Assembly: GCA_976551045.1 (NCBI GenBank)
Contig: CDPCPM010000776.1
Location: 248,001 to 312,000, forward strand
Length of the DNA: 64,000 bases
Source: Glaucostegus cemiculus
Lineage: Eukaryota
Direction of reading: 5' to 3'
Part shown: piece by piece, positions 17,561-41,796 of the stretch
Layout of the letters: each line of letters opens with the position of its first letter
How positions within the stretch are numbered: the stretch's first letter is position 1
Made by a program: the position numbers and the translations under genes
Notes under the pieces: generated by a model
What the model saw: only the letters and a program-made list of their open reading frames with translations
Told to the model about the DNA's origin: nothing
Databases searched by the model: none

Positions 17561-18675
17561 ATTACAGTGATCATCCTTCACAAGGCAAAATTATAAGGGG
17601 TTCAGTACCAAGCGTGGGTGACATCTTGAAAACATTTAAGGGCACTCAGCAAAAAGTGAATGGCTCCAATGAGACTTTATATATCGTGGGGAAGACAGCC
17701 AGAAATCACCTCACTGGTCCCACCACCACAGCTACCATCCCAGCTCTGTATATCTTAGTCTTCGCCATTGGGCTCCCAGCCAATGGACTGGGTCTCTGGA
17801 TAATGGCAACAAAAATCAGGAAATTACCTTCCACCATCTTCTTGATCAACTTAGCAACCGCAGACCTCCTCCTGATCCTCATCCTGCCTTTCAAGATCTC
17901 CTACCACCTTCTGGGCAACAACTGGCTCTTCGGCGAAGCTCTGTGTCGGACGATGACCGCCTTCTTCTATGGGAACATGTACTGCTCCATCCTGCTCCTC
18001 ACCGTCATCAGCATCGACAGATACTTTGCCCTGGTGTACCCTTTCACCTCTCGACAGTTCAGGGACAACACGTTTGCCGTTAGCGTCTGCTCGGTGATTT
18101 GGGTAATCGCTGCACTCTTGGTCCTGCCGTTTCTCTTCGAGGAGCAGTTGCTCAGAATCGACAACCTAAACATTACCACCTGTCACGATGTGTTGCCAGA
18201 GGCTAGTCAGACTGGGTACTTCTTCTACTACTTTGTGTGTTTGGTTATCATGGGTTTCTTAATCCCATGCTGTATCACCATATTCTGTTATGGATCTGTT
18301 ATCAAAACTTTAATAGTTAATGAAAAGAGTTATATACGTGCTGCAATAGTCACTTTTCTGATTCTGCTGGTGTATGTTGGGTGCTTTGCTCCCAGCAATA
18401 TCATCCTTATAATTCACCACGCCGAGTACCACCTTACAAATGACAGTGATCTCTATATTTATTACATGGTCTGCCTGGTTCTCAGTAGTTCCAGCAGCTG
18501 CATTGACCCTTTCATTTACTATTACATTTCTGATGAGTTTCGGGTCAGAGTAAAGCATGTTATTTGCTGCAAGGACCAACGTGCAATGCTGTCTGGTAGG
18601 ACCACCCAAGAACTCTTACGCACTAACACCTATTCCTCGCAGTCCAGGGCTGGAACGTCAGTGAGAAATATCTGA
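17561..18675 (+). CDS. F2RL3: Protease-activated receptor gene A, exon 2 (7TM; PAR4-like with PAR3-like features); full protein 401 aa
   Basis: Polypyrimidine tract plus TTAG acceptor ending at 17560. Class A GPCR motifs GLPANG, NLATADL, DRY, CFAPSN, DPFIY; PAR-diagnostic ECL2 NITTCHDVLPE. ICL1 ATKIRKLPST and DPFIYYYISDEFR resemble PAR4 as I recall it; TM6/ECL3 CFAPSNIILIIHHA resembles PAR3. Family call is firm, orthology is not. Confidence 0.93.
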
Positions 18676-18920
18676 TTCTGTGCAGGACCTGGAAAGATTT
18701 CAAAGGCACAGATTGTAAAATACCTTCAGGACTGACCGGCTCACAGAATGGTTTCAGCATCAAATCAACAATAGAATTGAAAATGAATCAAATTCTGTTG
18801 GTTCAGATTAATTTAGGAGATTATGTTTTTCTCAAATGTCACCTACTTGGAATTTTGAAAACCAGAATTTGTGTTTCTTTCAGTATTGTTACAATTGTCA
18901 GGCAGGAAGAAGAGCTTCTC

Positions 18921-19052
18921 CTCCAGACCACAGTTCCCTCCAGACCACAGTTCCCTCCAGACCACAGCTCCCTCCAGACCACAGTTCCCTCCAGACCACA
19001 GCTCCCTCCAGAGCACAGCTCCCTCCAGAGCACAGCTCCCACCAGACCGCAG
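18921..19052. repeat. 17-bp tandem repeat, about 7.5 copies, downstream of the gene A stop
   Basis: Unit ctccagaccacag(t/c)tcc. Confidence 0.95.
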
Positions 19053-19054
19053 AT

Positions 19055-19230
19055 CCCTACTGCCATGTTTACCTGCACTGCACTTTCCCTGTAGCTGCAA
19101 CACTGTATTCTGCATTCTGTGTTCTTTTTTATCTCCTCTCTAAGGTTATGTGTGGCATAATCTGACTGGATGGCATGCACACAAAAGCTTTTCACTATAT
19201 CTCAGTACATGTGACAATAATAAACCACTA
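19055..19230 (+). mobile_element. Rex1-type LINE 3'UTR remnant containing AATAAA (19219-19224)
   Basis: tgcactgcactttccctgtagctg...ttttcactatatctcagtacatgtgacaataataaacca matches the 29780-29985 3'UTR. Confidence 0.75.
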
Positions 19231-19289
19231 CCATGTCTTACTCTGCTCCTATCTCAGATCAGTTCTTGGTCCATTATCATCAACTTGTG

Positions 19290-20030
19290 TCCTCTGGTTC
19301 TGGATGACAGTGAGAAGTTTCTCATGGTCTACCCTATCTATGGCTCTTATACTTTGCATACTTAAATCAAGTCCCCCCAACCCCCAGCCTCCTCCACTCC
19401 TAGGAAAACAAGCCCAGCTTATCCAGTCTCTTCTCAAAGCAGAAACACACAATCCCAGGAAACATCATGGTGAATCTCCTCTGCACCCTCTCAAGAGTAA
19501 TCACGTATTTCTAGTAGTGCAGCAATGAGAATTGCTCAAAATACTCTAGCCCTGGCCTAAGCAACATTTCATATAGTTGTGTGATAGTCTCCCTGCTCTT
19601 ATATTCAAAGCCTTTGCTAAGAAGACAACTTGCTTTCATGACCATCTTATCTACCTGTCCTGCTACCTTCAGGGGACCCTTGGACTTGTACCCCAAAGTC
19701 CCTCTGTTCCTCAGTACCTCATAGGGCCCTACTATTCATTATATAGGTTCTAGCCTCATTAGTCCTCCAGAAATGCCTCATATATATCAGAATTCAATTC
19801 TGTCTGCCATTGTTCAGCCAATCCTAGCAACTCATCAACATTATTAAGTAGCCTAAAAACTACCATCCTCACTATCAGCTCCACCACTAATCTTAGAGTC
19901 ATCGGAGAAGTTATTAATTGTACCTCTTACATTCAGATCCAAATAATTAATGTAAATAACAAACAGAATGGGCTCCCTCACCATTCCCTGTAGTACATCA
20001 CTGGTCGCAGGCTTCCACATATAAACCCCA
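19290..20030 (-). mobile_element. Degraded CR1 LINE fragment
   Basis: Reverse-strand remnants LFVIYINYLD...NNFSDDSKISG and LKVAGQVDKMV...GFEYKSRE...LRPGLEY. Confidence 0.85.
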
Positions 20031-20139
20031 AAGCAGCAGCCAATCCCCATACTTAATAATATTTGACAATTTGAAGTGTATTAAAACTTGTGTAAAAATG
20101 TAAATGCTGTATCTGGCACAAACCTGTACAACAAATAAA

Positions 20140-21500
20140 GACAAATCATATAGATGCCTTGAGTGAGCGCATGATTGAGCAATGAAAATCTTCTTCTTAG
20201 GCAGCCTCTTGTACAGGTGGGGCAACTGCTGGCTGACAGGAGGGGCAGTTGGGTAGTTTGAGACTATGCACTCCTTCAGTCACTTATTCAGGGCCCCCAT
20301 GTGTTCCTGATGTTGGTCTTGAGTTTCTCAACATCTTCCTGAATCTCTTCTCCATTTTGAGCAGTCATGTATCCGAGGTTCTCAGAAGACAGTGTGGATG
20401 TTATATTTCTTCAAGGAATCTTTGAGAACATCCTTGGATCTTTTCCTTTGTCCACCTGTGAAACTGTTCCATGACAGAGTTTGGAATCAAGGGTTTTAAG
20501 AGTCTGGTGTTGGGCAAGTGAATGAGATGGCCAGCCCAATGTAGCCAACTGAGCATTAGAACAAGAGCCTCAATACTGGGATTGTTGGCAGGGAGAGGAC
20601 ACTGATACTGCTTTGCTCATCCTTCCAGTGAATTTGGAGGATAGTGTGGTTACACATTGGTGGTATTTTTGCACTGTCTTTAGATGCATGCTATAGATAG
20701 TCCAGATCTTAGAAACCTACAGGAGGGCAGGGTAAACCATGGTAAACCATGAGTTTTGTGCTAGGTCTGAGATCTTGATCTTCAAATATTCTCTTACTAA
20801 ATGAACACTAGCATTTGCTCTTGCATAGAACTTGGTGGTGAATTTCATAACCAATGTCTACCTTAATCAAGATGTTGCTCCTGAGAAATGGGAAGAGATC
20901 CATGTTTTCCAGGGGCTCATTGTGAACCTTTATTGTTGAAGAGTGTTGTGATGTAGCAGGAGCAGGATGACAGAGGACCTTCACCTTGTAAATGTTGATT
21001 GTAAAGCCCGTCCTCTTGTATACTTCAGTGAAAGTGTTGACCATGACTAAGAGCTTGGACACCAAATGGTTACAAATGCAAGTGATGTCTACGTATTGCG
21101 GCTCGATTACTGAGATACGGGCAACCTTGGCTCAGGAGAGTAAGCCAACATAGGTTGAACAGATTCCCATTGGTTCTGAAGGTAGCTTCATTCCAGGGGG
21201 ATGTTGTTGAAGGTGAGATGCAACATTTTGTTGAAAAAGACTGAGACAAATGTTGGGTCAATGATCCAGCCTTGTTTAACACCAATCTTCATTCAGAATG
21301 GTAGACCCATTGGTTAATATCATGGTTGGCATGCTGTTGTAAAGCAAGCATAAGATGCAGATGCATTTCTATGGGCATAATATAAGTATGATATTATAAG
21401 CGTGCTCCATAATAACTCTCCATGGATCATGTCAAAGGCCAAAAAATAGCCACATTGAACAGCTGGTGCTGCTCCTTGCATTTTTACTTGGAGCTGTCAC
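20140..21500 (-). mobile_element. Degraded RTE-clade LINE
   Basis: FRTNGNLFNL, GFTINIYKVKVLCHP, LENMDLFPFLRS and WLHWAGHL-like remnants of RTE ORF2. Confidence 0.8.
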
Positions 21501-21589
21501 CCAGAGAAGCAAGTGAGGGCAGTGGGAAGGGCAGATAGGGTCAGTGGGGAGGGGAACCAGTGAGAAGAGTGTGTGAGTGATGGGCAGAT

Positions 21590-22400
21590 GGAATGGATGG
21601 AGGAGGGCAAAGAAACAGGGTGATGGGGGTTGGGGTGAGTGTAGGGAGAACTGGGAGGGCAGAGAAAAGGGACTGAGGTGGGGGGGGGCAGTTTACCTGA
21701 GTTTGGAGAATTCAATGTTCATGTCATCGGGTTGTAGACTGCCCAGGCAGAATATGAGGGGCTGTTCCTCTAGTTTGCATTATCTTCACCCTGGCAGTGT
21801 AGGATGTTGAGGACAGACATGTCAGTGTGGGAATGGGGAGAGGAATTAAAATGGCTGGTAACTGGGAGATCCAGACGGCCACTGCAGACAGAGTGCAAGT
21901 GCTTGGTGAAGCGGTCACCCAGTCTGCATCTGGTCTCACCGATGCAGAGGAGGCCACACCGGGAGCACCGGGTGCAATAAATAAGGCCAGAGGACGTGGA
22001 AGTGAATATCCGTTTCACCTGGAAGGGATGCTTAGGGCCCTAGATGGTGGTGAGGGAGGAGATGTAGGGACAGGTGTTACATCTCCTATGGTTACAGAGG
22101 AAAATGCCCGGGGAGGGGGGTTGGAGGGTGGGGATGGATGAGCAGACCATGGAGTCAACCAAGCAGTGACCCCTGCGGAGAGTGGGAAAGGATGGGGAGG
22201 GAAAGATGTGGCTGGTGGTGGGATCACATTGTAGCTGGTGAAGAATGATGTGCTGGATGTGTAGGCTGGTGGGGTGAGGTGGTAGGAACTCTATCCCTGC
22301 TCTGTCTGGGGGTGGGGTGGGGTAAGGGCAGGTTCAGGAAATAGAGCAGATGCTGGTGAGGGCTCCATTAATGACAGTGGAGGGAGGGGGAACCTGGAGT
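21590..22400 (-). mobile_element. Penelope-like element fragment (GIY-YIG endonuclease)
   Basis: FTSTSSGLIYCTRCSRCGLLCIGETRCRLGDRFTKHL...PVTSHFNS, i.e. the LIY-CxxC-YIGET-R signature. Confidence 0.88.
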
Positions 22401-23129
22401 GGGGGGGGGTCTCAGCTCAAGAACAGATGTGACAGAGACAGAGAAATTTCCTTTTGCTCAGGGAGCTCCTGTTATACACTAGGTACTCATTATCCACTGA
22501 CACTATCCCAGACCTACAAACTCACAAGACCTTGTAAGAATGTTGGTAAACATTGCAGAATCCCCTCCTGTGGCATCCGCTGACAAATAGTGAAATATCA
22601 ACAGCTGGAGCCAGGCTCAGGAGCGGAAACAGCTGGGAATGTAGAATGAGTGTAGATCAGAAGCCAGGATCCAAGGGGTGGGCTGAGTGTGTGGTTGGAG
22701 CCAGGCTTGGGGTCAGGGTTGGAAACACCAGGATTTTGGTTTAGGGGTAGGTTTGAGCCAGCACCAGGGACTGTTTACGTGTCTCAACTTGTGCAGATAC
22801 TCACTCATGTTATGGAAAGCTTCTGTTGAAAGTTCCTTGTAACTTACTCCCACTTTTTTCTCTCTCTCCACATCCTCTTTATTACATAACCCAAAACTTA
22901 CCTGACAATTTGATTGATGCAACTTTCCCTGTGGATTGTACCATCTCCATTCTGCTCCCCTGCGACAAGATTCTATGTGATCCAATGTCCAAATAGCACG
23001 ACAAGGTGCTTTGATTGGGAAAGAAGTTTGAGTTTATTAACAGTCCAGAAGTTGTAGGGGTTTTTTTTCTCCTGATCTTTACACTTGCAAAGCCTGTCAA
23101 GGACGCTCCGAGCTGACAGCACAAAATAG

Positions 23130-23970
23130 TTGTGATGAGGATATTGAATCAACTATGGAATGTAGGTAGGTTGAGTGAGTGGGAGAAGACTTGGCAAATG
23201 GAGTTTATTATGAGAAAGTATGAAATCAAGTACTACTGTGAGAAGAATCAAAAGGCAGATTATTATCTAAATGGAAAAAGATTGCAATGTCTATAGAGAG
23301 ATTTATGTGTTTTTCTGCATGAATCACAAAGCATTGGCAGGCAGGTGTAGCAAGTAGGAAAGCAAATGACACATTGGCTTTTCTTGCAAAAGAGAGTGTA
23401 GAAATTGAGAAGTATTGGCACAATTGTATGTGACGTTGGTGAGGAAGGTCACATCTAGTTCTGTGCACAGTTTTGCTCTACTTATTTAAGAAAGGATATA
23501 TTGACATTGGAGGCAGTCCAAAGGAGATTCACCAGGCTAATTCCTGAGGTGAGAGGGTTGTCCTATCAAGGACAGCTAAAGAAGGTGGATCTTTATTCTT
23601 TGAAGTTTAGAAGAATGAGAGGTGATCTTATTGAAGATCTATGATCTTTAGGGGGCATGATAGTGTAGATGTTCAGGTGTTTCCACTGGTTGAAGCATCT
23701 TGAATGAGGGGATATACTTACAGGATAAGGGGATTGTAATTTAAAACTGAGGTGTGCAGGAATTTCACCTTGCAGAAGATGGTGTTATTTTCCCCTGAGG
23801 GTTGTGGAGACTGGGTCATTGGAGGCATTTAAAGAGGAGGTCAGACACTTTTTAGAAAGACTGGGGAAAGGAGAAGTGACCTGGGGCAGAGCAGCCATGA
23901 TGGTATTAAACGGCAGGGCAGGCTTGAGGATCCTGGTGATCTCCTCTTGCTCCCATTTTCCTGTGTTCTT
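23130..23970 (+). mobile_element. Degraded CR1 LINE fragment
   Basis: tggcaaatggagttt (WQMEF), LEAVQRRFTRLIP, RRMRGDLIE and a 3' tail. Confidence 0.85.
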
Positions 23971-24454
23971 ATACAGCCATTCCAGAGCTACCTTGGTATT
24001 TATATGATGACTTATGACTTGAGTGACATTGTTGCATAGCTGGGGTCCACAAGAAAATCTCTTGATCCTATAAACAAATACTTCACAGATTACACTCCGT
24101 TTGAAAAGTTCAGCAATGACGCTGGGTTTCCCATAGCAGCATGAGACGAAATTTAGTCAATATTTGGTCAACTTTGGCTCATCGTAAGATATGCATTCTT
24201 GCTGAAGCCATAATTACATGGCTAAAAGTGTCACCACTGCATGGAAACCGGGGGAAGGCATTTTTCAAATGTTTTACTCGAAGACATCAACTTTTAAAAA
24301 CTGGGAGGAGTGACTTTTTGGGAGGAGAGGGGAATGGGAGCAGAAGTGTGGGAACCTGTCAACCAATGTAGACTGGAAGCCACATTAGAGGAAAGAGGAA
24401 GGCACCTTAAAGGTATTAGTGTGGTAAATCTCGTCATCAGGACAAATATAACAG

Positions 24455-24810
24455 GGCAGCACAGCAATGCAGCTGGTAGAGCCACTGCCTCACAACACCA
24501 GAGACCGGGGTTCAATCCCAGTCTTGGGTGGTGTCTGCACATTCTCCCTGAGACCAGGTTGGTGTCCTCTGGTTGCTCCAGTTTCCTCCTACATTCCAAA
24601 GGAATGTGGGTTGGTAGACGCTTCAGTAAATTGACTTTAGTGCGTAGGTGAGTGGTAGAATTGGGGGGTGGGGGATAGGGAGAGGAGAAGGGGTAGTTGT
24701 CGAGAATTTGGGAAGAATCAAAAAATAGGATTAATGCAGGATTGATGTAAGTGGGTGCCTTATAGTCAGCACAAACGCAAGGGGCGGAGGGACCTATTTG
24801 TGTGATGTAT
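24455..24810 (+). mobile_element. tRNA-derived SINE
   Basis: ggcagcacagcaatgcagctggtagagccactgcctcaca...gggttcaatccc head, V-type core and a CR1-like tail. Confidence 0.75.
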
Positions 24811-25779
24811 CCCTTTGTGCCTTTCTGCTCCTAACACTATAGGAAGGATGTACTTGCACTGAAGACAATGCAGAGGAGATTCACCATCTGTGGTGTCCTT
24901 ACACAACGAATCTCTCAAATCTTGTCCAGTCCTGCTAAATTGGGTATCTAAACATGATGATAATATTGGGATTATCCCTCCTGCTAGAAACCCCTCTGTA
25001 GTCTCCTGTGGCACTGATGACTTTCAGTTTGACCTCTGTTTTCCAGCTGAAGTTTAAGCAGCAATCTGCAGAGATCTGGCAATGCTTTCTTGCTTTCTAC
25101 CCAGTGCCCTGAATGCTTTTTTAATTATTAGCTTCCAAGGATTTGCAAATACATACCCCAAGTGTCGAGACCCTAGTACTGCATCAGTACATATTGTCTC
25201 TCCATGCTTCTCCCTCAAAATGTATCACCTCACATGAATCTATATCAGTTCCATCTGCCACGTGTCAGACAGTTTTACCAATCCATGTGTCTTCAGGTCT
25301 TCACTATTATTGTGGAATTATGTGTTATCAGTAAAATTGTAAATGTTTTTCCTACACCAAGAAGTCTATCATTTATATATAACAAGATAACCCATGTTCC
25401 CTGTACCCACTCCTTGAGGATTCTGTATTTCTGTCCATTTGGAGAGTCATTACCTGTTCACCCCTACTGCCTGCCCACTAGCATTTGGAAACTCTCTGGA
25501 AAGGGTTCTCATCCTCCGTGGGTGTATGGTAACAATGGGAAACCCTCTCATTGCCTTCTGATTCTCCCCACTCTCGTAGGAAGGTAACTAGGCAACAGCG
25601 GCACATCTGGGCAGAACGCAGCAAGGCACCGTAAATAGTTGTTTCTCAGACTGAAGGATGGAGGGCTGTAGTTCCCCAAGGGGCAGTGCTGGCGACACTG
25701 CATTTTGTTTTGATATGTAACTTGGACTTTGGAACAGAGATTTAGAGAAGATTTGACAGAAGTGTACGTGATTGTAACA

Positions 25780-27637
25780 ACACTTGAATTTTCGTTATTC
25801 TCTATTTTAGGAGCTTCACTCCCTTTTGCACTTACCAAATTAAGTAAATATATGACTAACCCAATCATTAAACATACATTACAAATATGGTTTCAATTTC
25901 ATAAATTCTTTGGATTGACTAAATTTGTTTTGTCAAATCCTATACAATCTAATTTTTTTTTCAACCATCTAGACTAGATACAGCTTTTTCTTTATGGAAA
26001 AGGAAGGGAATAGTATGCTTTCGTGATCTATTCATTGGTAACTGTTTTGCATCTTTTGAACAGCTGTCTAATAAATATAATTTACCTAGATCACATTTTT
26101 TTCGATATTTGCAGATTAGAAAAATTTTTAAAAGCTACTACACCCTCCTTTCCATTTCTTTATAAAGACAAAATCATTGATAAAATTTTAGGTTTTAATC
26201 CTCATCAGAAGGGCTTGACAGCGATAATTTATGATTTAATTATGAAAATACGAGCAGATTCACTGGACAAAATTAAAAATGATTGGGAAAGTGAACTCCA
26301 GATTTCTATATCTATAGAGACTTGAAGAAAATTCTTCATTTAGTTAATACATCCTCAATGTGTGCCAGACACTCATTCATACAGTTTAAAGTTGTGCACA
26401 GGGCCTATATGTCCAAAGATAAGCTAGCTCGTTTTTATGATCGTATAAACCCTATATGTGACAGATGTAAATCGAACGTAGCTTCTTTGTCGCATATGTT
26501 CTGGTCCTGTCCTTATTTGGAAAAATATTGCAAAGACATTTTTAATATTATTTCAGATGTATTGAAAATCGATTTACAACCTCACCCTGTTACTGCAATT
26601 TTTGGATTACCATGGATAAAGTTTGGCCATTTACCTGCTTCTGCTAATCGTATGATTGCTTTTGTTACATTGATGGCCAAACGAGCCATTCTGCTTAAAT
26701 GGAAGGATCCAATACCCCCCACTACCTTTCAATGGTTCTCTCAAACTATATCATGTCTTAATTTGGAAAAAATTAGGAGTGGTACTGTTGATTCTTCGCT
26801 TAAATTTGAAGATATTTGGAGTCCATTTATTCAATACTTTCATATGATGTAGTTTCTCCTTCTATAACTTTTTTTTTAAATTTAGAGAAACGGAGCTGAT
26901 GACATTATATTGTTCTATTTCTATTGAAAATTTTAGCCCAGTTTTTTTTTTCCTTGTTTTGTTTTTTTTGGGGTTTTTTTTAATTCATTTTCGGTTTAAT
27001 TTACTCTATATTATTATGATTTTTTAAAATTGATTTGGGGGCTTTTTTTGTTTTTTTTTCTAATTATATAACAAATCTTTTTCTTTTCTATCTTTTACAT
27101 TACACTTATGAACCGAGAGATTGTTGGAACTATTTCTTTTATATATATCATACTTTATTGCTTTTCTTTATGATTACCTACGATTGTTACTTGATATTTC
27201 TATAATACATGTGTAAACATTGTTGTTATCAGAATCAGAATCAGAATCAGTTTTATTGTCACAACCACATACATACAAAGTATGCAGAGGAGCGATATAC
27301 CGTCCTCCTCAGGTGCTCGTCCCATACAAAAAAATGACATAACAACCAACAGAGACACATACACACTTGGCAGAATACATAGTATAGATCATTACACCTT
27401 AAAAGCTAAGGGGATTGAACTTAAATTCAGGATCGATTTATCGATTTTCACTTACACATATACATGTGCAAAAGACATCAAAGACAATAAAGGACACCTG
27501 GACAAAAACATCAAAACATTAACAGCCCCCCTGCCTCACCCCGCACCGACGACCACCTCCAACCCCCCCAGTCCTACATATCTTATATATCTTAACCTGT
27601 ATTGATTTGTTATCAATAAAAAAAATTGAAAAAGAAC
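25780..27637 (+). mobile_element. 5'-truncated L1/Tx1-clade LINE with 21-bp TSD
   Basis: AT-rich frameshifted ORF2 C-terminus with zinc knuckle CDRCKSNVASLSHMFWSC, T-rich 3'UTR, AATAAA and A-rich tail. Flanked by gaagtgtacgtgat(t/c)gt(a/g)aca at 25759-25779 and 27638-27658. Confidence 0.9.
27232..27606 (-). mobile_element. Rex1-type LINE 3'UTR inserted antisense in the L1 3'UTR
   Basis: (gaatca)n tail; last roughly 150 bp match 36510-36670; flanked by ttgttatca at 27223-27231 and 27607-27615. Confidence 0.85.
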
Positions 27638-28029
27638 GAAGTGTACGTGATCGTGACAGGTTTAGACAAGGTAGACAGAGAGAACCTGTTTCCTGTATAA
27701 GGACTAGATCAACACAGATTTAAGATTTTGTGAAAGAGATACCAGGGAGAAAGAATGTGATGGAAACAAAATGAACCTGTTGGGCTACAGGAACAGAGTA
27801 AGGGAATGGGACTGAATGGGTTGATCTAAGAGCAACAATAGGCTGAGAGGTCAAGTAATCTGCCTTTCCACGGTTGAGTCTATTACCACCTGGTTATGGC
27901 ATCCAGTGTCCAACGCCCCATAGCAACAGCCTATAATGTGACTTGGACATTGCACCTCAGCTTCAGGAAATATCATTTCACATGCCATAACTAATATCGA
28001 CAGTGAAAGTACAGTGGGAAACACAGTGG

Positions 28030-28205
28030 CTCCCACTTTACTTGCTGCTGTTAATGCTGCTGCCTCGTGGCTCCAGGGATCTCTGTTCAACTCTGTCGGT
28101 ACGGAGTTTGCACATTCTCCCTGTAACTGTACGAGTTTCTCCAGGTGCTCTGGTTTCCTCCCACATCCCCAAGATGTGCTGGTCAGTCAATTGGCTGCCA
28201 TAAGT
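28030..28205 (+). mobile_element. Truncated tRNA-derived SINE
   Basis: gctgctgcctcgtggctccaggg...ggagtttgcacattctccc...ggtgctctggtttcctcccacatcccc. Confidence 0.7.
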
Positions 28206-28209
28206 TAGC

Positions 28210-29995
28210 CCTTGGTGTTCCCAAACAGGAAACCATGGATGAACCGGGAGATCCACTCCATACTGAAGAGAGGACTGCTGCACACAGATCTGGTGATCCG
28301 GATCTGTACAAGAAATCGAGGTATGACCTTCGGAAAGCTATAAGGGATGCCTAGAGGCAATACCGACTCAAAATAGAGTCCTTGACCGGCTGCCAGTTAT
28401 GACAGGGCTTACATGCCATAACAGGCTACAAGACGAAGTTGGGCTGCATAGCTAACAGCAGCGCATCCCTTCCTGGTGAACTTAACGCATTCTATGCGCG
28501 GTTTGAACAGAAGGGAAGTGGATTGTCACCATCCACCCTGACCGCCTCAAATGCAGTTGAACCTGTGATCATCGCTGAGGACGTAAGATCAGTCTTCCGG
28601 AGAGTGAACACGAGGAAAGCACCTGGCCCAGATGGTGTCCCTGGCCGTGTGCTCAGATCTTGTGGTGATCAGCTGGCTTAAGTATTTGTGGACATATTTT
28701 ACCTCTCCCTGCTTCAATCTCAGGTTCCCACCTGTTTTAAGAAGACCACTATCATCTGGACAGTAAGGACACCTGTGTTAGACTTTTGTTTATTGACTAC
28801 AGCTCTGCCTTCAATACAATAATCTCAAGCAAACTTGTCACCAAACTCCGAGACCTGGGACTCAACAGCTCCCTCTGTAACTGGATCCTTGACTTTCTAA
28901 CTAACAGACCGCAGTCAGTGAGGATAGGCAGCAATACCTCCGGCACAATTATTCTCAACACTGGTGTCCCACAAGGCTGCATCCTCAGCCCTCTACTCTA
29001 CTCCCTATACACTCATGACTGTGTGGACAGATTCTGCTCTAATTCCATCTACAAGTTTGCAGATGATACCACCATTGTAGGCCGTATCTCAAACAGCGAT
29101 GAGTTGAAGTACAGGAAAGAGATAGAGGGCTTAGTGGAATGGTGTCATGACAACAACCTTTTCCTCAATGTCAACAGAACAAAAGAGCTGGTCATTGACT
29201 TCAGGAAAGGGGGTGGTGTACATGCACCTGTCTACATCAATGGTGCTGAGGTTGGGAGGGTTGACAGCTTCAAGTTCCTGGGCGTGAACATCACAAACAG
29301 CCTGTCCTGGTCAAATCACATAGATCCCACAGTCAAGAAAGCTCACCAGTGCCTCTAATTCCTCAGGAGGCTAAAGAAATTTGGTTTGTCCCCTTTGACT
29401 CTCACCAGCTTTTACCGATGCACCGTAGAAAGCACCCTATCTGGATTATCACAGCTTGGTACGGCATCTGCCCCCGCCAGGACCATAAGAAACTGCAGAG
29501 AGTTGTGGACACAGCCCAGTGCATCACGGACGCCAACCTCCCCTCCTTGGACTTTACCTCTCGCTGTCTTGGTGAAGCAGTCAGCATAATCAAAGACCTC
29601 ACCCACCCGGGACATTCTATCTTCTTTCCCCTTCCATCAGGTAGAAGATACAGGAGTCTGAGGGCACGTACCACCAGATTTAAGGACAGCATCTACACCA
29701 CTGTGATAAGACTATTGAACAGTTCCCTTATACAATGAGATGGATTATGACCTCACGATCTACCTTGTTGTGGCCTTGCACCTTATTGCACTGCACTTTC
29801 TCTGTAGCTGTGACACTGTACTCTTGCTGTTTTTACCTGTACTACATCAATGCACTCTGTACTACCTCAATGTACTCTGTACTAACCCAATGTCACAGCA
29901 CTGTATAATGAATTGACCTGTACGATCAGTATGCAAGACGTTTTTCACTGTACCTCGTACAAGTGCCAATAATAAACCAATACCAATACCAATAA
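28210..29995 (+). mobile_element. Rex1/Babar-clade LINE, degenerate with internal deletion
   Basis: [52 protein letters not shown]; stops and frameshifts; (aatacc)n tail. Confidence 0.93.
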
Positions 29996-30295: not shown

Positions 30296-30297
<2 letters not shown>

Positions 30298-30341: not shown

Positions 30342-30344
<3 letters not shown>

Positions 30345-32059: not shown

Positions 32060-32615
32060 CTGAGTGGGCAAAGATCTGGCAACGGAGTATAATGTGGGAA
32101 AATGTGAGATTCTCCATTTTGGCAGGGAAAGGTAAAGCACATTAATGAGAGATTGTAGAGCTCTGAGACCCAAAGGGTTGTGTGTATCCTAGTGCATCAT
32201 TCACAAAGGATTCATGTGCCGGTACAGCAAGTAATTAGGAAAGTTAGCAGAATGTTGTCAGTTGGAATTTAGGAAAGTGAGACATAAGGATCCTGACGGG
32301 CCCTGATGGGGTGGATGCAGAGAGGGTGTTTCCTCTTGTGGGAGAATCTCTGCACTGGGGGGGGGGGGGGGTCACCATTTAAAATTTAAGTCTGAGATGA
32401 GGTGATTTCTTTTCTCTCAGGTTGTGATGAGTCCTCAGAACTCTCTTCTTCAACAGAAGGTGGAAGCACAGTCTTTGGATATCCTTAAGACAGTGGTAGA
32501 TGAGGAAAGGAGTGAAAGTTTCTCACATGTAGACAGGAATACAGAGTTGAGGTTACAAGAGATCAACCATGATCTTATTAAATAAAGAGCTGGCTTGAGG
32601 GCCAAGTGGTTGGCA
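32060..32615 (+). mobile_element. Degraded CR1 LINE fragment containing a poly-G run
   Basis: tggcaacggagtataatgtgggaaaatgtgag (WQMEYNVGKCE-like) and 3'UTR remnants; G run at about 32357-32371. Confidence 0.7.
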
Positions 32616-33064
32616 AGTACAATGTATAACAGGGTAAGGGTGCTCCCAGAAGGCCACTGAACTGTAGCTTCAAAGATGTGAGCACTCAGTGCCTCAGTTA
32701 GTTTATTTCTACAAATTGTTTGAAACAAAGAAGTTGCAAGTGGTTTGCATTTTGAGATGATGTGGAGGCAAACCATGAAGTGCTGGTGTTCTGCTGTCTG
32801 CTGCCCTTGTCCTTCTGGGTGGTGGAAACCCACGGTTTGGGAGGTGTCGCTGAAGCAGCCTTGGTGAGTGACTGCAGCTGCAGCATTCTGGAACTCAGCA
32901 TCCAAGGACCACCACTGGTTCCCTCTGGGCCAGGTCTGACTTCAGCAAATGGAATGTATTTTTTTCCCTTTTGTATCAATTCTTCTTTAACGACAAGAAC
33001 TTTACTTTCACTTAAAGTAATTACACTAAACTCAAGGAGATAAGAATTCTTACAGAAATGAAAA

Positions 33065-34590
33065 AAAGGCAAATGCTGGAAACATTCAGCAAGTCAGGCA
33101 GCATGTGTACAGAGACAAACAGAGTTAAAGTTTCAGGTCAATGGTATTTCATCAGAATTGGAAAAGGGCAAGGGAAGGAGGATGGGGAATGGAGGAGCGA
33201 GTGGAGGCAACAAAGGGAATATCAGAACAGATAGGATGGAGCCGGAGAACCTGGGAGAATGGTATGGATTCCTTACAGGAAGCAGAGTGGGAGGAGACAT
33301 AGTGGAGATAGCTGTCGGAGTTGTTGGGGGTTGGATTATAATGAATATCGGTTGCTAACCAGTAGTCTGAGATAGAGAAGTCAAGAGAGAGTCAATATGG
33401 GCCACGTAAACGTGAGAGCAGTGTGGAAATTGGCAGCAAGGGTAATCAAATGTTATATCTGAGTGCAGGAAGCAGCACAATACAGGAATTAATATTTTGA
33501 GAAGGGAGGTGGGGTAGGAGAATAAGTAGGGTCAAAGTAGCAACAGTTCCAAGTATCTCACAGAGACAAGGACAGTTTGGGCCCTTGCAATTTCCCATCG
33601 TTACACCTGTAATTTGGAGAAGTGGGTGAAGTTAAGGGAGACGTTGTTCAAGAACAAGCTTATTCAGGCAAAGGAAGGTGCTAGTGGAAGGCCTGTTAGT
33701 CCTCTGCTCAAGTAAGAAGTGAAAGACCCTCATTCCCGTTCTGGAGTGGGATAGAACTGTGCAGGGATTAGACATCCGTGGTGGAGATGCACCATCTGGG
33801 AGCAGGAAAGTGGTAACTGTCAGTGGTAGAGAACATCAGAGGTTCACAGATGTAAGTGGGATGGACTGGACAAAAAGAGAAAGAACTGAGTGAGGGCAGG
33901 AAGAAATAAGCTCTGTGGGGCAAAAGAAGGTGAAACAATGGAGGAAAGATGGGTATACTGGGACTGTGCTAGTGGGGAGGAAAGAGAAGCAGGTTGTGCA
34001 GGGTTTACAGACTCAGAGGTAATGGAGGATCGCTTAGAGGACTGACATCAGTGACTGTCTGGGAGACAATGGCCAAACCTTCAGCACTGAGGCTATGGTC
34101 CAGAGGGAGATATGAAGAGGTGTCTAAGAGCTGACATTCAGACTCTGTGAGGTGGAGGTCAGTTTGCCAAATAACAAGAGCACCTTCCTTGATTAGTTCT
34201 TAGTACACGGGTTACTTCAGGTTAGGGGTCAGAGTGAATAAGGACAGTGGAAACACTCAGACAGTCAATTTAGCATTGGAAGTTAGCCATGAATAGACCT
34301 AGTGGGAGAAATGGGATGGAAGGAAAGGTTCTGCTGGATTGAGAATTCTGGACAGAAGGTCTACAGTCTGGGATGGAAACTCCTGGCTAAAGGACTGTGC
34401 GTAGACATGAGGGCTCAACTTCATTAAGGTGAGGATGTGGGTGGGGGGAGAGGTGCGGTGACAATGGGGCCTCTGCTGAGTGATCGTTCAGGATCAGAGA
34501 GCTCAGGTCAGAAGGGGTAATGAAAACACAGCAGACCGCAGGCAACAATGGGGTCAGAGGAAAGAGATTTCCAGCATCTGCAGTTCTTTG
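33065..34590 (-). mobile_element. Highly degraded Penelope-like element with terminal motif
   Basis: Reverse strand LNNVSLNFTHF-LQITGVTMGNCKGP parallels FLQIKGVAMGTG of the 46900-49750 copy; terminal motif at 33065-33157 and its inverse at about 34560-34590. Confidence 0.7.
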
Positions 34591-34689
34591 CTTATTGAAG
34601 CATCTTTACAGTCTGCTTTGTTTACTGTTCTCAGAGAGCTACCTACTTTGCACCTTTTGAACATAAGAATGTAAGAAATAGGAGCAAGA

Positions 34690-34880
34690 ATAAGATAAGA
34701 TCTTTATTAGTCGCATGTGCATCAAAACACACAGTGAAATGCATCTTTTGTGTAGAGTGTTCTAGGGGCAGCCCACAGGTGTCGCCACGCTTCTGGTGCC
34801 AACACAGCATGCCCACAACTTCCTAACCCGTCCGTCTTTGGAATGTGGGAGGAAACTGGTCACCCGGAGGAAACCCACGC
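34690..34880 (-). mobile_element. SINE 3' half (V core plus Rex1-like tail)
   Basis: Reverse complement of 57320-57505; (ataag)n tail. Confidence 0.85.
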
Positions 34881-35120
34881 ACTCTCGACTCCATGGCCAG
34901 GTGACATATCCTCATTGTACCTATCTTGCAGAGCTCTCTAAGAATTTAGCGTTTTGTACCTTTGATTTCTTTTGTCTTCAGTTTTACCAGAGGTTATTGG
35001 CATCATGCTTGGTATAACATAAAGGCAGTCACTCACACCTTAGCATTGAAGTCCAGTTCTGCGTGTGTGTCTGGACAAACACTATAATGAAGTTTGTAGC
35101 TATATGATCATGCAGAGGGC

Positions 35121-36670
35121 AAACTGCCACCATCATACCTGTTCCTAAGAAGTCTCCTCCAATGTGTCTGAATGACTACCGTCCCATAGCTCTAACACCG
35201 ATTGTCATGAAATACTTTGAGAAGCTAGTTATGAAGCACATTAGAGCCATCCTCCCCCCATCCTTGGATCCTCATCAGTATGCTTATCGGGCAAACAGGT
35301 CCACCGTTGATGCAGTCTCCTCTGCCGTGCACTCTGCACTATATCACTTAGAGAAGAAGGACTCATACTGCCGACTGCTATTCATCGACTTCAGCTCCGC
35401 TTTCAATACCATCATCCCGCAACAGCTAATCAGGAAGTTGAGCGCTCTGGGCATTAACTCTCCTCTCTGCAACTGGATACAGGACTTTCTAACTTGCAGG
35501 CCACAGTCAGTCAAAATTGGTGAAGACACCTCAAGCACCATCACACTGAGCACTGGCTCCCCTCAGGGGTGTGTGCTCAGTCCGCTCCTGTTCACCTTGT
35601 TGACCCACGACTGTGAGGCCAGATTCAGCTCCAACCGCATTGTTAAATTTGCCGATGACACGACAGTGGTGGGTCTTGTCACGAATGACGATGAGTCGGA
35701 CTACAGAGAGGAGGTGAAACAACTAGCCGTGTGGTGCTATGACAACAACCTCTCCTTGAATGTGGATAAAACCAAGGAGATGATAGTGGATTTTAGGAGG
35801 GGTCACCGTGTGCACGCCCCGCTGACCATCAACGGGTCTGCTGTGGAACAAGTACGCAGCACCAAGTTCCTGGGGGTGCACATCACCAACGACCTGACCT
35901 GGTCCACTAACATTATGGCCCTCACGAAGAAAGCTCAGAAACGCCTCTACTTCCTGCGGAGACTGAGGAAAGCGAACCCCCATCCCTCCGTCATGAAAAC
36001 CTTCTATAGGGGGACCATTGAGAACATCCTAACCCAATGTATCACTGCTTGGTTTGGAAGCTGCTCAGCTGCTGGGCGGAAGTCCCTCCAGAAGATAGTT
36101 TGGGCTGCGGAGTGGATCATGGGTGTCTCGCTTCCATCCCTCGCAGACATATACAAAGACCGTTGTGTGAGGAAGACCAAAAGCATAATGGCCGACCCTT
36201 CTCACCCCTCCCACCACCTCTTCACAATTTTGCCATCAGGGAGGAGGCTTAAATGTATCAGGGCAAGAACGACCAGGCTGAACAATAGCTTCTTTCCGCA
36301 AGCCATCAGAACTGCAAACTCTCTCATCCCTCCATAGTTTGTTAACACTAAGAGATGCTAGGTGTACAGAAATGCACCAGCACTTTAAATGCCCGACACC
36401 AGCCCCTTCACTTTAATAACTATTTATTTATTTACCGGCCATTTTTAATTTAATCTGCGTATTAATTTAATTTTAACTTCCGTAGCTTTTAATGTTTAAT
36501 GTTTTGTAATGTTTATTCTGTCAAGTCTGTATGTGTGTCTCTGTTGGTTGTTATGTTATTTTATGGGACGAGCACCTGAGGAGGACGGTATCTCGCTCCT
36601 ATGCATATTATGTATGTATATGGTTGTGACAATAAAACTGATTCTGATTCTGATTCTGATTCTGATTCTG
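35121..36670 (+). mobile_element. Young 5'-truncated Rex1/Babar-clade LINE with uninterrupted RT ORF
   Basis: 391-aa ORF 35162-36337: [53 protein letters not shown]...SFFPQAIR; 3'UTR ends in (ATTCTG)5. Confidence 0.96.
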
Positions 36671-39049
36671 AAGCTAGTGTGGTGTGTCAAGGTCACCAGT
36701 GAAGAGCCTGTGTTGGAGGGGTGAGGTGAGGTGGGGTGGGGTGGGTTACAGGACTTCCCAGGCAGTGCTCAGCTGAAAACAGCTACAACTTGCCAAGGGA
36801 TTTTGATGAAAAGGATCATTATTGAGCAGCAGGAAACAATTGCCAAACCTTCTGAATGCACTGCACAAACTCATGGAGGTAGGAGGAGCCCATCTCAAAT
36901 TATTCTGGAACAGGCTTGTTCCCATGGGAGAAGAGCATGCATCTACATGATGCCTAAACAAGGCAATGGAATGACTAAACCCAGGTCTTCCCTGGTATCC
37001 AGAGCTTGAACACTTGCCTTAATAAGAAGGAGTGCTACCCCAGCCTTGGCATTTCAATGCCCCACTCATCTGCAGCAAAGTTTTCACCAGCAAAGTGGCA
37101 ACAGGGACGTGTGACTGGGCCCTGAGAGGGTTAATGGAAAGGTTGCAGAGAGGATGGTGCTCTCCTCCCAATCAATAAAGATTCCACGCCAGATCTGCTC
37201 CCTCAGCCAGTAGCCAACACTCTAACACCCCAATGGCCAGGTCTGTATCTGGAGCAGTTCACAGGTTTCCAAAACCAGGACCAAGAGCAACTCACCAGTC
37301 AGACCAAGGATGGGAGCAGCTTCCCCTACCTAAAGTCATAGGGCTTGCTAGTCATGGAAACAATTGATGGTTATTCAGTGTTAAGATGTTGGATGCCTTA
37401 CACATTTTATGCAGTTACGTCTTGCTTATTTGCTTACGTGTTTCCCGTGTTACCCCCTTCTGGCTACTGGTTGGCAGGTGACTTTGGGAGTTGTCCAGTA
37501 ATGAACGGGAAGAGCTGAACTGATGGTGACCATTTGGAGTCAACAAAAGAAGTGCTTGGACGTTTGCAGGGTTACTTGGTCTTAGTGTCAGTGGGAGGAT
37601 CAAAAGTGCCTTTGGCGTGTGGTACTGCATGATCTAAGTGGAACTTTGCACTAATGGGGGCACCCCAGGAAGCAGAGTGCACCCACATTGTCCTCAACTC
37701 CTCGTCTGCCTCCTCCTCTGAAGAGAGCTCGTGTCTGGAGGAGCTTTTTGAGGAGAAATGAAACTTAAAATATCAACAACAAGCACTGAAGCCCTTAAAA
37801 ATTCTCCTTTTATTGCAGCATTGGTTGCTCTGGAATAAATTAACAAAGTCATATGTTCAAACTAAAGCCGGCTTCGAGAACATCATTTATAATCTGGACA
37901 TTTTTACAGCTTAATAACTACTTTTAAAAAACAGAGATTTCAGTATGTCTCAATGAAATTAAAACTATACAGATGAAATGCAGCATTATAGCATTCTGAC
38001 TGTTAAATTTGATAGTAATCATTAAAAGAGAAACAGCTAATTAAAATTACAAGCAAAGAAACTTTCCACAAAAAATGATCAATATTTTAAGCTCACAAGT
38101 GAAATCCAGCATCCTGGTTCTGTTTCAGTGTGATTCTGTGTACATGATATATCTTAAAGCAAATACCGAAAGAAAAAATGCAAATGGCTGTATTAGTCCA
38201 CTATCATTCTTTGTTTCTGGCCTACAATATTTGAATATTGATGCAGTTAAATTCTAAAGCAAATTAATCCCATACAACAACAAAATACAAATAACTTCAC
38301 TGGCTCTGCTGATACTGCCACAAAGAATTTTATGACATTTTACAGTTTAGAAATAGGTCAAACAACCCAAAAGGTTTCTGCTGGTATATGTGTTCCATCC
38401 ATCTCACTGGATCATCAGCATATTCAAACCAGTTTCCAAGTAATTTTTAGTGTCAATTCCGACTGGTGGATATAGATAGGAAACTGACCAACATAGATAG
38501 CAAACTGACCTCGAATTTCCCACTCCTTATTTTTTGGTTAAATTCAGGAGTTTTTTGTTGGTGTTTGGCATGTTCAAGTATTTTCAGCTATTAAAAACAT
38601 TTCACTCTGGTCTATTTAAATGAAATTAATTGGAAATTGGTAATAATAACAATTACAGATTAATTCAGTCTTTACCTTAATTATTCATTTGACAATATTT
38701 TCATTGTCTTCACATAAAAAGGGATTGTACTAGCTTCTCTAAGTATGCATAAGAGTAAAGACTAGCAAGAGCAAATGAGCGTTAGAGACAGGAGGGTTTG
38801 TAATTGGGAATAAAGAATGGTAGAGGAAATAATTTATACTTTGTGTCTTTCTTCACAGAAGAAGAGGAATAAACTAATACTTTATGCCCATCTTCACAAA
38901 AAACCTGCCAGCAACACTAGAGAATCAAGACACAAGAGATTGTAGATGCTGGAATCAGGAGCAACAAGCAGTCTGCTGGAGGAACTCAGCAGACTGAGCA
39001 GCATCTGTTGGAGAGAGGAATTGTTTGCATTAAATGGAGGGTAATATAA

Positions 39050-40030
39050 TGAAAATCTGAGAATTGCTTAACAGATATAAAGCATATGAGTAGGAAGAGC
39101 TGGTCGTCTTCAGGCTGGCAGGATGGAATCAGTGCTTAGACACCAGCTACTCACAATCAGTATCAGCAATTTAGATGAGGGGACCAAATGTCACGTTTCC
39201 AAGTTTATTGATGATTCCAAATTAGATGGATTTATGAGTAGGGACCAGGATGTAAAGACACTTCCAGAGGATACAGTCAAGATAAGTGAGAGGGTGGGGT
39301 CATAGTAGATAGAATTAAGAGGTAAAAAAAATGGGGGTTATCTATTTCAGTTAACAAAGCAGAAAAAACAAAGTTTTTTTAAAATGGTGGCAATTCGGAA
39401 CAGTTGATGTTCAAGGTGACCTAGCTGTCATTGTACACGACTAATGTGAGGTTGCAGCAAATGATTAGGAAGGCAAACCTTGGCTTTATTACAAGAGGAT
39501 TTGATTGCAAGAATAAGGATATCTTACTGCAATTATTCAGGGCCAAGGTGGGATTGCAGCTGGAAAATTGTCTCTTTGTCATAGAGGGAGCATGACAAAA
39601 ACTCACCAGACTGATTCCTGGATGTATTTGTTCGTACGGGGAGAGACTGAGTAGATAAACTTATATTCTCCAGAGTTTAGAAAAGTGGGATCTCAGTGAA
39701 ACTTCAAAATTTACAGGGATCAACAGGATGGATGCAGAGAGAAAGTTTCTGCTGGCTGAGGAATCATAATATTATGTAAGAGGCAAAGAGAAATTTCTTC
39801 AATCACAGGGTGATGAATTTCTGAAATTCCTTACCACAGAGGGCTTTGGAGGTTCAGTCACTGAGTTCATTCAAAACAGAGACTGAATATTAAGGGAATA
39901 ATGAGCATGAGGTTAGTGCCAGATTCCTTGAAACAGATTATTGTCTTCATTTGATCTTGATGAATGATGGAACAAGCTCAAAGGCCCAGATGGCCTTCTC
40001 CTACACCTAATTCTTATGTTCTTTCTATGA
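39050..40030 (+). mobile_element. Degraded CR1 LINE fragment
   Basis: ISNLDEGTKCHVSKFIDDSKLDG and a downstream 3' tail ttcttatgttc. Confidence 0.8.
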
Positions 40031-40325
40031 ACATCATTACCCTTCCCATTGGGCATACTACAGAGAAATGGGATCGGTCAGCAATCTGTGTGAGCATTGT
40101 CATAGTCCCAGGTGGCAGTCTTAAAGTTAAGTGAATGAAGATGTGAATTCTTCATGATTGACATTTATCCCTGACATGGGGTTTTATTTGTGGAAATAAA
40201 TAAAATCAGATTTTCCCAGTTGGCCTTCATTATGTTTGCTTTTTCAGTTTTATTCCCGCCATACTACACCCCCATAAATTCAATCCCTCATGAATTTGTC
40301 ACAGGAAATTCCCAGCTGCAAGCTC

Positions 40326-40331
40326 TTTATT
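40326..40331 (-). promoter_or_regulatory. Candidate polyadenylation signal of gene B
   Basis: First AATAAA seen on the minus strand after the gene B stop; further copies at about 40249-40254 and 40183-40188. Confidence 0.4.
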
Positions 40332-40768
40332 GTACACCAAGCTCCTCTGCTAAAGGTTAGCAATCTACTTAACCTCAGTTTGATAACATCCTGTTCTGAT
40401 TCTTGCTCAACTATATGCTTCAGATTGGGAAAACTGAGTTACCCAGATTTTCTTTCCTTAAACAAAGATAAAGATTATAACTTTCGTATAAGTAACTGGC
40501 AGAACAACATGGGAAAGTAGGAAACTGTTCATCCAGTATGTGGTGGTCTGGAACTTACTGGTTAGAGGCTGAGAGAGGCCAAGGTTTTCTGCGCATTTAA
40601 CAAGCAACCATATGACTTCATGGCTATTGAGCCAGATCTGGACTGTGGGATCTGGCTGAATTGCTCTTTGGTTGGGACAGACACAATATGCCAAATTGTT
40701 GCCTCATGAGCTGTGGTTCTTTACAATACAATGATTGAGGTCTCATCTTCCTGACCTGAGTCACTCAG

Positions 40769-41796
40769 CTACTCACTGCACATATTTGTTGAGGAACTTC
40801 GGGAGGAAAGCAATCGAGACAACTCCAATGTAATGGATGACTGCAAAGATCGATTCTTGGTTCCAGCTTTACGGAAACAGATTATTGCCTTTACTTTGGT
40901 CCTCCATTCATCAGAAATGAAGTAGTAAATAAAAGGGTCAATGCAATTATTAAAACTGCTGAGGGGCAAGAAGAACATGTAATAGATGTGGAGTTCAGGG
41001 ATCCATTGGTGCAGTAGCAGTATTATATTATTGGGACTGAAACACACAAGATACATAAACAAAGTTAAAACAGTGACCTTTATAGCTTTTTTATACTCTG
41101 TCTTGCTAAAGAGTAAAGTTCTGATTACATTACAATAACAAAATACAGTAATTAAGCATGGAATTATAAACCCTAGTATTACAACAGCCTGCCAGTAATA
41201 GAAATAAATATGTTCTCTATTCTTTAGATACACATCATGGCAGGTGATGATATCTAGGTCATTGATATAAAAGGACTGTTGCACAAGGAAGAAAGGGAGA
41301 ACAAAGAGAACAACCATCACCCAAATTGCAGTACAAACAGTAACAGCAAACTTATTGTCTCTGAAGCGTCTGGAGTAAAATGGATGGACCAGAGCAAAGT
41401 ATCTGTCGATGCTGATGAAGGTGAGGAGCAGGATGGAGCAGTACATGTTCCCATAGAAGAAGGCGGTCATCGTCCGACACAGAGCTTCGCCGAAGAGCCA
41501 GTTGTTGCCCAGAAGGTGGTAGGAGATCTTGAAAGGCAGCATCAGGATCAGGAGGAGGTCTGCTACAGCCAGGTTGATCAGGCATATGGTGGAAGGTTTC
41601 TTGTTTTTTGCGGCCATTATCCAAAGTGCCAGTGCATTGGCTGGGAACCCAATAACAAACACGAGGATGTAAAGGGCAGGACTCATAACTGTGGTGATGG
41701 AACTTGTCTGTTGATATTTGGCCCATTTAGATAAATCAACTGAACTCGAGTTATTCTTCATTTGTCCTGCCAATCCTCCTGCGAATGGTACTAAAC
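40769..41796 (-). CDS. Protease-activated receptor-like gene B, main exon (7TM), convergent paralog of gene A
   Basis: Open frame of over 334 aa with GFPANA, NLAVADL, DRY, ITCHDV, CFSPNN, DPFIY. Acceptor ctcctcacatctttAG at 41798-41797 gives a phase-1 exon starting xGT-TTA-GTA-CCA-TTC (x-L-V-P-F-A-G-G-L-A-G-Q-M-K-N-N-S-S-S). Confidence 0.92.

What the first reader, a model, noticed from the sequence alone, without database searches (positions are those of the whole stretch)
17860..41563. Sharply bounded gene-conversion tract between two inverted PAR paralogs
Seen: 17884-18003(+) and 41539-41420(-) are identical over 120 bp (40 codons, every synonymous site). The wider 17860-18035 versus 41563-41388 tract has only 4 mismatches in 176 bp. 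Just outside it synonymous sites diverge heavily (cct ttc acc tct cga cag ttc agg gac aac versus cca ttt tac tcc aga cgc ttc aga gac aat), and ECL2, ECL3 and both termini differ with indels. The tract covers TM2-ECL1-TM3-DRY and is visibly richer in third-position G/C and CpG than the rest of gene B. Inference: recent or recurrent ectopic, probably GC-biased, gene conversion homogenises this module while the ligand-facing loops diverge. Purifying selection alone would not preserve synonymous identity.
Basis: partly seen in the sequence, partly recalled or inferred. Interest (0 to 1): 0.85.

Follow-up and report, generated by a model that had tools for sequence, protein, structure and literature searches.

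The report
Shark receptor genes swapping one segment
Two old neighbouring protease-sensing receptor genes of a sawfish-like ray have kept copying one short inner stretch onto each other, as their counterparts in sharks also do, while the parts that read the signal stayed different: a new, long-lived case of a known process.

Summary
Observation confirmed: 120 bp identical, 4 mismatches in 176 bp; 0 of 37 degenerate codons differ, against 45-54% in the flanks. Genes A (+) and B (-) are PAR-family GPCRs nearest Pristis pectinata proteins (97%, 93%), in an elasmobranch cluster of PAR4-like paralogs. The flank tree gives A, B and C clades (support 98-100), each holding sharks and rays, so the duplication predates their split (about 306 Ma). 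In the TM2-ECL1-TM3-DRY-ICL2 segment paralogs group by species: 72 residues are identical between A and B in 3 of 6 sharks, fixed-topology tests reject orthology (p 3e-9; sharks only 1e-6), and TM1 and TM7 reject species grouping. One freer test did not reject (p 0.11). Verdict: recurrent, regional ectopic gene conversion, confined to the most conserved segment and sparing the ligand pocket. GC bias is plausible (GC3 0.84 vs 0.37-0.44) but untested; direction and recency are open; no DNA from other species was available. Same kind as CCR2/CCR5, protocadherins, oxytocin/vasopressin; no report found for PARs.

The parts
5814..5904 (+). Gene A exon 1 (start codon, signal-peptide-like N-terminus), GT donor at 5905
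   Evidence: tblastn of P0001 residues 1-30, 90% identity; with exon 2 gives an open 401-aa frame, same length as P0001
17561..18675 (+). Gene A exon 2: putative cleavage site K|TFKG (K at 17629-17631), 7TM body, stop
   Evidence: ORF, acceptor AG ends 17560, Pfam 7tm_1 4e-52, 97% to P. pectinata P0001
40769..41796 (-). Gene B 7TM exon (candidate acceptor AG ends 41797; first in-frame ATG 41761); tail-to-tail with A, about 22 kb between the stop codons
   Evidence: ORF, Pfam 7tm_1 6.5e-48, 93% to P. pectinata P0052
17884..18003 (+). Core conversion tract in A (end of TM2, ECL1, TM3), 120 bp identical to B
41420..41539 (-). Core conversion tract in B
17827..18090 (+). Wider zone exchanged between paralogs across elasmobranchs (TM2 to ICL2/start of TM4), in A coordinates
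   Evidence: quartet site patterns and within-species identical runs; 14 of 18 species-private A=B residues and 0 of 30 paralog-diagnostic columns fall here
41333..41596 (-). Same wider zone in B (ungapped offset from A)
17824..17826 (+). ICL1 Leu codon present in all A and absent in all B orthologs; A-B identical runs start just after it in 3 sharks, so it marks the 5' border
17827..18240 (+). GC3- and CpG-rich patch of gene A, longer than the tract shared with B
   Evidence: GC3 0.68-0.84 vs 0.44; CpG o/e 0.74, third of 318 400-bp windows, window mean 0.23

Best explanation
Recurrent non-allelic gene conversion among linked PAR4-like paralogs (A, B and the C group) of elasmobranchs. Purifying selection keeps TM2-ECL1-TM3-DRY-ICL2 similar enough for a paralog to serve as repair template; each conversion resets synonymous differences and so keeps the segment convertible (a feedback loop). 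Outside it the paralogs have diverged too far, carry indels (ICL1, ECL3), and hold the paralog-specific ligand-pocket residues, which selection would protect. The inverted orientation of A and B lets non-crossover exchange happen without deleting DNA. Repeated conversion has probably raised GC3 through GC-biased repair. Shown: identity, old age of the paralogs, switch of genealogy inside the segment, repeated independent homogenisation. Inferred: the repair mechanism, the role of selection at the borders, the GC bias, the donor, and whether the latest event postdates the split from P. pectinata.
For: Synonymous identity far beyond chance. Flank tree: A, B, C each one clade, support 99/100/98, 2 changes of paralog label, each with sharks and batoids; tract tree: 16 changes, 4 sets of identical rows spanning paralog groups. 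Within-species A-B tract identity exceeds A vs other-species B in 8 of 10 species (1 tie, 1 lower), while downstream A-B is about 0.5 vs orthologs 0.59-0.80. Identical A-B runs at the same place: 74 aa Heterodontus, 84 Mustelus, 92 Stegostoma, 51 Heptranchias. The more distant linked paralog F shows no within-species excess. In single-copy tetrapod PAR4 this segment is the most conserved block (0.79; TM7 0.77; others 0.57-0.70). Theory and precedents: PMC3924837, PMC2880985, PMC1852091 (passages).
Against: treekit AU test of 'all 15 A rows form a clade' in the tract was not significant (p 0.111; identical rows were left free). Batoid-heavy four-species test on the 72-column tract was inconclusive (p 0.31; core alone rejected orthology). 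Skate and Mobula A-B pairs show no within-species excess; there B resembles C instead. The 72-column tract was chosen after seeing the alignment; species trees in the fixed tests are from my own knowledge. All cross-species evidence is protein-level; GC bias was not polarised. TM7 is about as conserved as the tract in PAR4 yet not exchanged between A and B, so constraint alone does not fix the position.
Confidence: 0.9

Rival explanations
1. Assembly or polishing artefact: reads from one paralog overwrote the other.
For: Perfect identity over about a short-read length; reads not available here.
Against: The same segment is homogenised with species-private residues in independently assembled genomes; P. 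pectinata A and B share the A-type residues yet differ at 2 core residues, so they are not a copy; cross-mapping needs near-identity to begin with, which itself needs conversion after about 300 My. At most it could turn a nearly identical tract into an identical one.
Confidence: 0.04
2. Purifying selection on protein plus shared codon bias or nucleotide-level constraint, without exchange (the reading PMC2656470 gave for elephant-shark vasotocin/oxytocin exon 2).
For: The segment is the most conserved block of PAR4; GC3 is high in both genes.
Against: Independent codon choice at GC3 up to 0.95 gives about 1e-10; the segment differs between species while matching between paralogs (14 of 18 private shared residues), which constraint does not produce.
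Confidence: 0.03
3. Conversion is real but GC-neutral; B simply received pieces of a GC/CpG-rich (possibly unmethylated) exon patch of A.
For: A's GC3/CpG-rich patch extends about 200 bp beyond the shared tract, B's does not; CpG o/e 0.74 vs 0.23 window mean.
Against: A also exchanges longer tracts with C paralogs in sharks (125 aa to 18198 in Chiloscyllium), which could explain the longer patch by biased conversion; GC3 peaks (0.87-0.93) in the core of both genes.
Confidence: 0.3
4. A single old conversion in the sawfish lineage, with no exchange since the split from P. pectinata; slow rates keep the copies identical.
For: P. pectinata B already carries the A-type residues; its two core differences are at CpG positions of the window sequence and may be its own mutations; in the core the two topologies tie, and over the 72-column tract window/P. 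pectinata orthology is preferred.
Against: With assumed dN/dS 0.1-0.3, the chance of no synonymous difference in about 30 sites is 0.001-0.28 (rough, rests on an assumed ratio). It does not explain the other species.
Confidence: 0.35

Closest known systems
CCR2/CCR5 (and CCR1/CCR3) gene conversion in mammals
   Same: Linked class A GPCR paralogs; repeated independent conversion in many lineages, mainly of transmembrane regions (PMC2880985 passages; PMC8877049 first third).
   Different: Here at least three paralog classes, an inverted pair, one fixed segment used again and again in sharks and rays over about 300 My, ligand pocket excluded; in bats the CCR tracts were extensive and included extracellular domains.
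Clustered protocadherins (regional homogenisation of EC4-EC6)
   Same: Regional, lineage-specific conversion among cluster paralogs with raised GC3 (PMC1852091 passages).
   Different: Tandem same-strand arrays of many genes and tracts over 1 kb; here 120-280 bp inside a single GPCR exon.
Oxytocin/vasopressin exon 2 of eutherians
   Same: Tail-to-tail inverted pair with a short (197 bp) identical central coding stretch ascribed to conversion (PMC2656470 passages).
   Different: Hormone precursor; tract follows an exon and enters the intron, whereas this one lies within one exon; for elephant shark that paper argued against conversion.
Chicken FFAR2 paralogs
   Same: GPCR cluster under extensive conversion (PMC4453067 abstract).
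   Different: Young copies 87-99% identical over the whole gene, ligand residues homogenised; here old copies about 50% identical outside the tract.
PAR4 (F2RL3) and the PAR family
   Same: 7TM body, two-exon layout in A, ECL2 TTCHD motif, basic residue before a tethered-ligand-like stretch; nearest non-chondrichthyan hits are nearly all named PAR4.
   Different: Up to six linked paralogs per elasmobranch; the family survey PMC4771116 has no shark or conversion mention (0 occurrences) and reports expansions only in teleosts.

Membership tests
Non-allelic (ectopic) gene conversion tract | Local identity between paralogs at synonymous sites beyond chance and beyond codon bias | tested here: met
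   0 of 37 vs 45-54% in flanks; 0 of 200,000 shuffles
Non-allelic (ectopic) gene conversion tract | Paralogs older than the tract (flanks follow orthology) | tested here: met
   flank tree; AU on flank blocks
Non-allelic (ectopic) gene conversion tract | Tract groups paralogs by species | tested here: met
   (protein level); and the batoid 72-column test not significant
Non-allelic (ectopic) gene conversion tract | Same result on DNA of other species; both tracts confirmed by reads | not testable with these tools
   no eukaryotic DNA or read collection available
Non-allelic (ectopic) gene conversion tract | Non-reciprocal transfer with identifiable donor | tested here: inconclusive
   B of sawfish is A-like, B of 4 other batoids C-like, but most shark B are A-like: parsimony ties
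GC-biased gene conversion | Raised GC3 in the converted segment | tested here: met
   0.84 vs 0.37-0.44, Fisher p 2e-8 (B), 3e-5 (A)
GC-biased gene conversion | Excess AT-to-GC fixations at polarised sites or segregation bias | not testable with these tools
   needs outgroup DNA or polymorphism
Protease-activated receptors | Rhodopsin-type 7TM closest to PAR1-4 | tested here: met
   Pfam 7tm_1; top 8 PDB matches are PAR4/PAR2/PAR1 for both genes
Protease-activated receptors | Signal peptide and basic cleavage site followed by a tethered ligand | tested here: inconclusive
   A: exon 1 found, K|TFKG aligned with K/R in 15 of 15 A rows, resembling PAR3 K|TFRGAP (PMC4771116 passage); B: no exon 1 or aligned site found in window
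Protease-activated receptors | Activation by proteolysis | not testable with these tools
   needs a cell assay
PAR4 (F2RL3) orthology group | Clade with tetrapod PAR4 against PAR1-3, and conserved synteny | tested here: inconclusive
   best hits point to PAR4, but PDB scores are near ties with PAR2, no PAR1-3 were in my trees, and no neighbour gene was found in the window

The most novel reading that the evidence does not exclude
The segment is a germline recombination hotspot that has stayed in place for over 300 My because elasmobranchs place breaks at CpG-rich, unmethylated DNA rather than by fast-evolving PRDM9 (elephant-shark PRDM9 is partial, slowly evolving and not seen in testis RNA; PMC5519329 passages), and selection favours a species-matched TM2-TM3-ICL2 core shared by all cluster receptors (dimer or G-protein interface) while the ligand pockets diverge: a modular receptor cluster with a co-evolving constant core and variable pockets.
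Probability: 0.12. Interest if true: 0.72.

Novelty: new member of a known kind. Interest (0 to 1): 0.45.

Why it matters
It is a clean, unusually old example of regional concerted evolution with built-in controls (orthologous flanks, a non-participating paralog F, many species), suited to measuring GC-biased conversion and the identity threshold for ectopic conversion in slowly evolving genomes. It also exposes an apparently undescribed elasmobranch cluster of up to six PAR4-like receptors with distinct tethered-ligand sequences, mislabelled PAR2/3/4-like in databases; trees of these genes must leave out TM2-ICL2. The mechanism itself is known.

Tried and rejected
One search used a wrong frame for gene A and was redone; one search crashed and was redone. 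Polarity of GC differences between A and B in the shoulders gave no usable signal without an outgroup. A third paralog or other host gene in the window: none by tblastn or Pfam scan of 142 of 169 stop-to-stop frames of 75 aa or more (27 left out: tandem-repeat frames or frames overlapping ORFs already identified); only 2 GPCRs and 4 retroelement frames hit; short exons would be missed. Other long exact repeats: no direct 40-mers over 1 kb apart; 82 inverted 40-mers, of which 81 are accounted for by the 120-bp tract. My recalled idea that TM2 residues K131/H135 line the tethered-ligand pocket was not supported by the passages read and was dropped. Rows dropped: two truncated A isoform models (P0042, P0049) from downstream analyses; unnamed P0048, P0105, P0121 and Callorhinchus rows from trees and tests; only 3 of 13 F rows used as outgroup. 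No structure or complex prediction was run: it would not bear on the question.
Full report
Observation. The two stretches are as described: 120 of 120 bases identical, 4 mismatches in 176. They lie in two convergent 7TM reading frames, A at 17521-18675(+) and B at 41818-40769(-), which align at 72% over 860 bases. Among codons with the same degenerate residue, 0 of 37 differ in the core against 10 of 22 (TM1), 13 of 24 (TM4-ECL2) and 25 of 56 (TM5-7); the shoulders give 5 of 16 and 8 of 19. The run of 44 identical codons was reached in 0 of 200,000 shuffles, and shared GC-rich codon bias cannot produce it (about 1e-10 even at GC3 0.95). GC3 is 0.84 in the core against 0.37-0.44 downstream; in A, but not B, the GC3/CpG-rich patch continues to about 18240.

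What the genes are. A is 97% identical to Pristis pectinata P0001 and B 93% to P0052, so the window is from a sawfish-like ray. A has exon 1 at 5814-5904 and an open 401-residue frame. Both hit Pfam 7tm_1 and PAR structures first. Database names (PAR2-, 3-, 4-like) are inconsistent; non-chondrichthyan best hits are nearly all PAR4, so I call them PAR4-like without having tested this on a tree with PAR1-3. Six P. pectinata paralogs share one longest-contig value and three Mustelus paralogs share a 332-kb contig, a hint of one cluster, not a map. No further paralog lies in the window.

Age. With the tract left out (195 columns, 58 rows), A (13 rows), B (12) and C (30) are each one clade with support 99, 100 and 98, and each holds sharks and batoids. 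The duplication therefore predates the shark-ray split, dated at 306 Ma (PMC3692497, abstract).

The tract switches genealogy. On 72 columns (17830-18045) the paralog label needs 16 changes instead of 2, with identical rows across paralog groups; the tree is poorly resolved. Within-species A-B identity is 1.00 in Heterodontus, Mustelus and Stegostoma, 0.99 Heptranchias, 0.97 Carcharodon, 0.90 Scyliorhinus torazame, 0.93 window, 0.90 P. pectinata, 0.86 Mobula, 0.83 Amblyraja: above the cross-species A-B mean in 8 of 10, tie in 1, below in 1. Quartet patterns over 35 species pairs (not independent) favour species grouping from 17821 to about 18090 and orthology elsewhere. 14 of 18 species-private residues shared by A and B, and 0 of 30 paralog-diagnostic columns, fall in 17827-18090, 31% of the region. 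Against: the one-clade test for 15 A rows gave p 0.111 and a four-species batoid-heavy test on the tract p 0.31. The species trees are from my own knowledge and the 72-column span was chosen after viewing the alignment. C paralogs take part too (A-C, B-C, C-C within-species excess), the more distant F does not. In four other batoids B carries C-type residues, in the window and P. pectinata A-type ones; since most shark B are A-type, parsimony does not fix the donor.

Mechanism. Best reading: repeated non-crossover repair using a linked paralog as template, sustained where purifying selection keeps identity high (this is the most conserved block in single-copy tetrapod PAR4; principle in PMC3924837, passages), bounded 5' by the ICL1 indel and 3' by divergence in TM4. 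The excluded parts are those forming the tethered-ligand pocket in PAR1/PAR2 (PMC12033368, passages), and A and B differ there consistently, including a six-residue ECL3 deletion in all B rows that cover it; selection against conversion there is inferred, not shown. GC bias fits the composition, as in protocadherins (PMC1852091, passages), but copying from a GC-rich donor fits as well. Whether conversion recurred after the split from P. pectinata is open: rough probabilities of zero differences without it are 0.001-0.28 under assumed dN/dS. An assembly artefact is unlikely given the repeat of the pattern in independent genomes, though reads were not seen.

Known cases and novelty. The process matches CCR2/CCR5 (PMC2880985 passages; PMC8877049 first of three parts), protocadherins, oxytocin/vasopressin (PMC2656470 passages) and chicken FFAR2 (PMC4453067 abstract). 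Five searches of the open library (listings only) showed no paper on an elasmobranch PAR cluster or conversion among PARs; the PAR family survey has no mention of sharks or conversion (PMC4771116, passages) and the whale shark paper mentions PARs once in passing (PMC8455134). Subscription journals and supplements were not searched. PRDM9 context comes from PMC5519329 (passages) and concerns elephant and whale shark only.

Verdict. Real, correctly interpreted, wider than first seen; a new member of a known kind. Interest 0.45.

Noticed in passing
window 40769-41796 (-), gene B and its orthologs: B lacks a detected signal-peptide exon or aligned basic cleavage site, has a 6-residue shorter ECL3 and, in 9 of 13 rows, His where PAR2 has the TM7 tyrosine 7.32; it may be a PAR-like receptor not activated by cleavage, or its exon 1 is simply unannotated.
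   Followed up: partly
window 17629-17649 (+): Gene A's putative tethered ligand (K|TFKG) resembles that of PAR3 although the body is nearest PAR4; the paralog classes have different ligand-like stretches (C: R|S-hydrophobic, F: R|KFPI/RFPI).
   Followed up: partly
P0010/P0023 and P0027/P0080 (Stegostoma): Different paralog bodies are annotated with the same signal-peptide N-terminus and as isoforms of one gene: shared first exon with alternative second exons, or an annotation merge.
   Followed up: no
P0014/P0057, P0018/P0024, P0023/P0027: A second exchange zone at TM6-TM7 between other paralog pairs: identical runs of 41, 52 and 68 residues.
   Followed up: no
P0042, P0049 (Mobula, Hypanus gene A models): Isoform models that skip from ECL2 to the C-tail (window 18210 to about 18550), losing TM5-7 in two related rays.
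   Followed up: no
window 17950 (B) and 17959 (A): The two core residues that differ in P. pectinata sit at CpG positions of the window sequence, consistent with methyl-C decay.
   Followed up: partly
window 2453-3514, 26295-26852, 28741-29358, 35108-36337: LINE-type reverse transcriptase frames (Pfam RVT_1, zf-RVT) in A's intron and between A and B.
   Followed up: no
window 6241-6705, 18920-19058, 58467-58845, 14450-14616, 53899-54082: Minisatellites with periods 36, 17, 33, 40 and 88; the 17-bp array lies 245 bp after A's stop.
   Followed up: no
window 8601-9200: Highest CpG o/e of the window (0.82-0.95) inside A's intron, overlapping a dispersed repeat.
   Followed up: no
P0020, P0035, P0134 (Callorhinchus): Chimaera paralogs show no identical run over 8 residues, so homogenisation appears absent or long ended in holocephalans.
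   Followed up: partly
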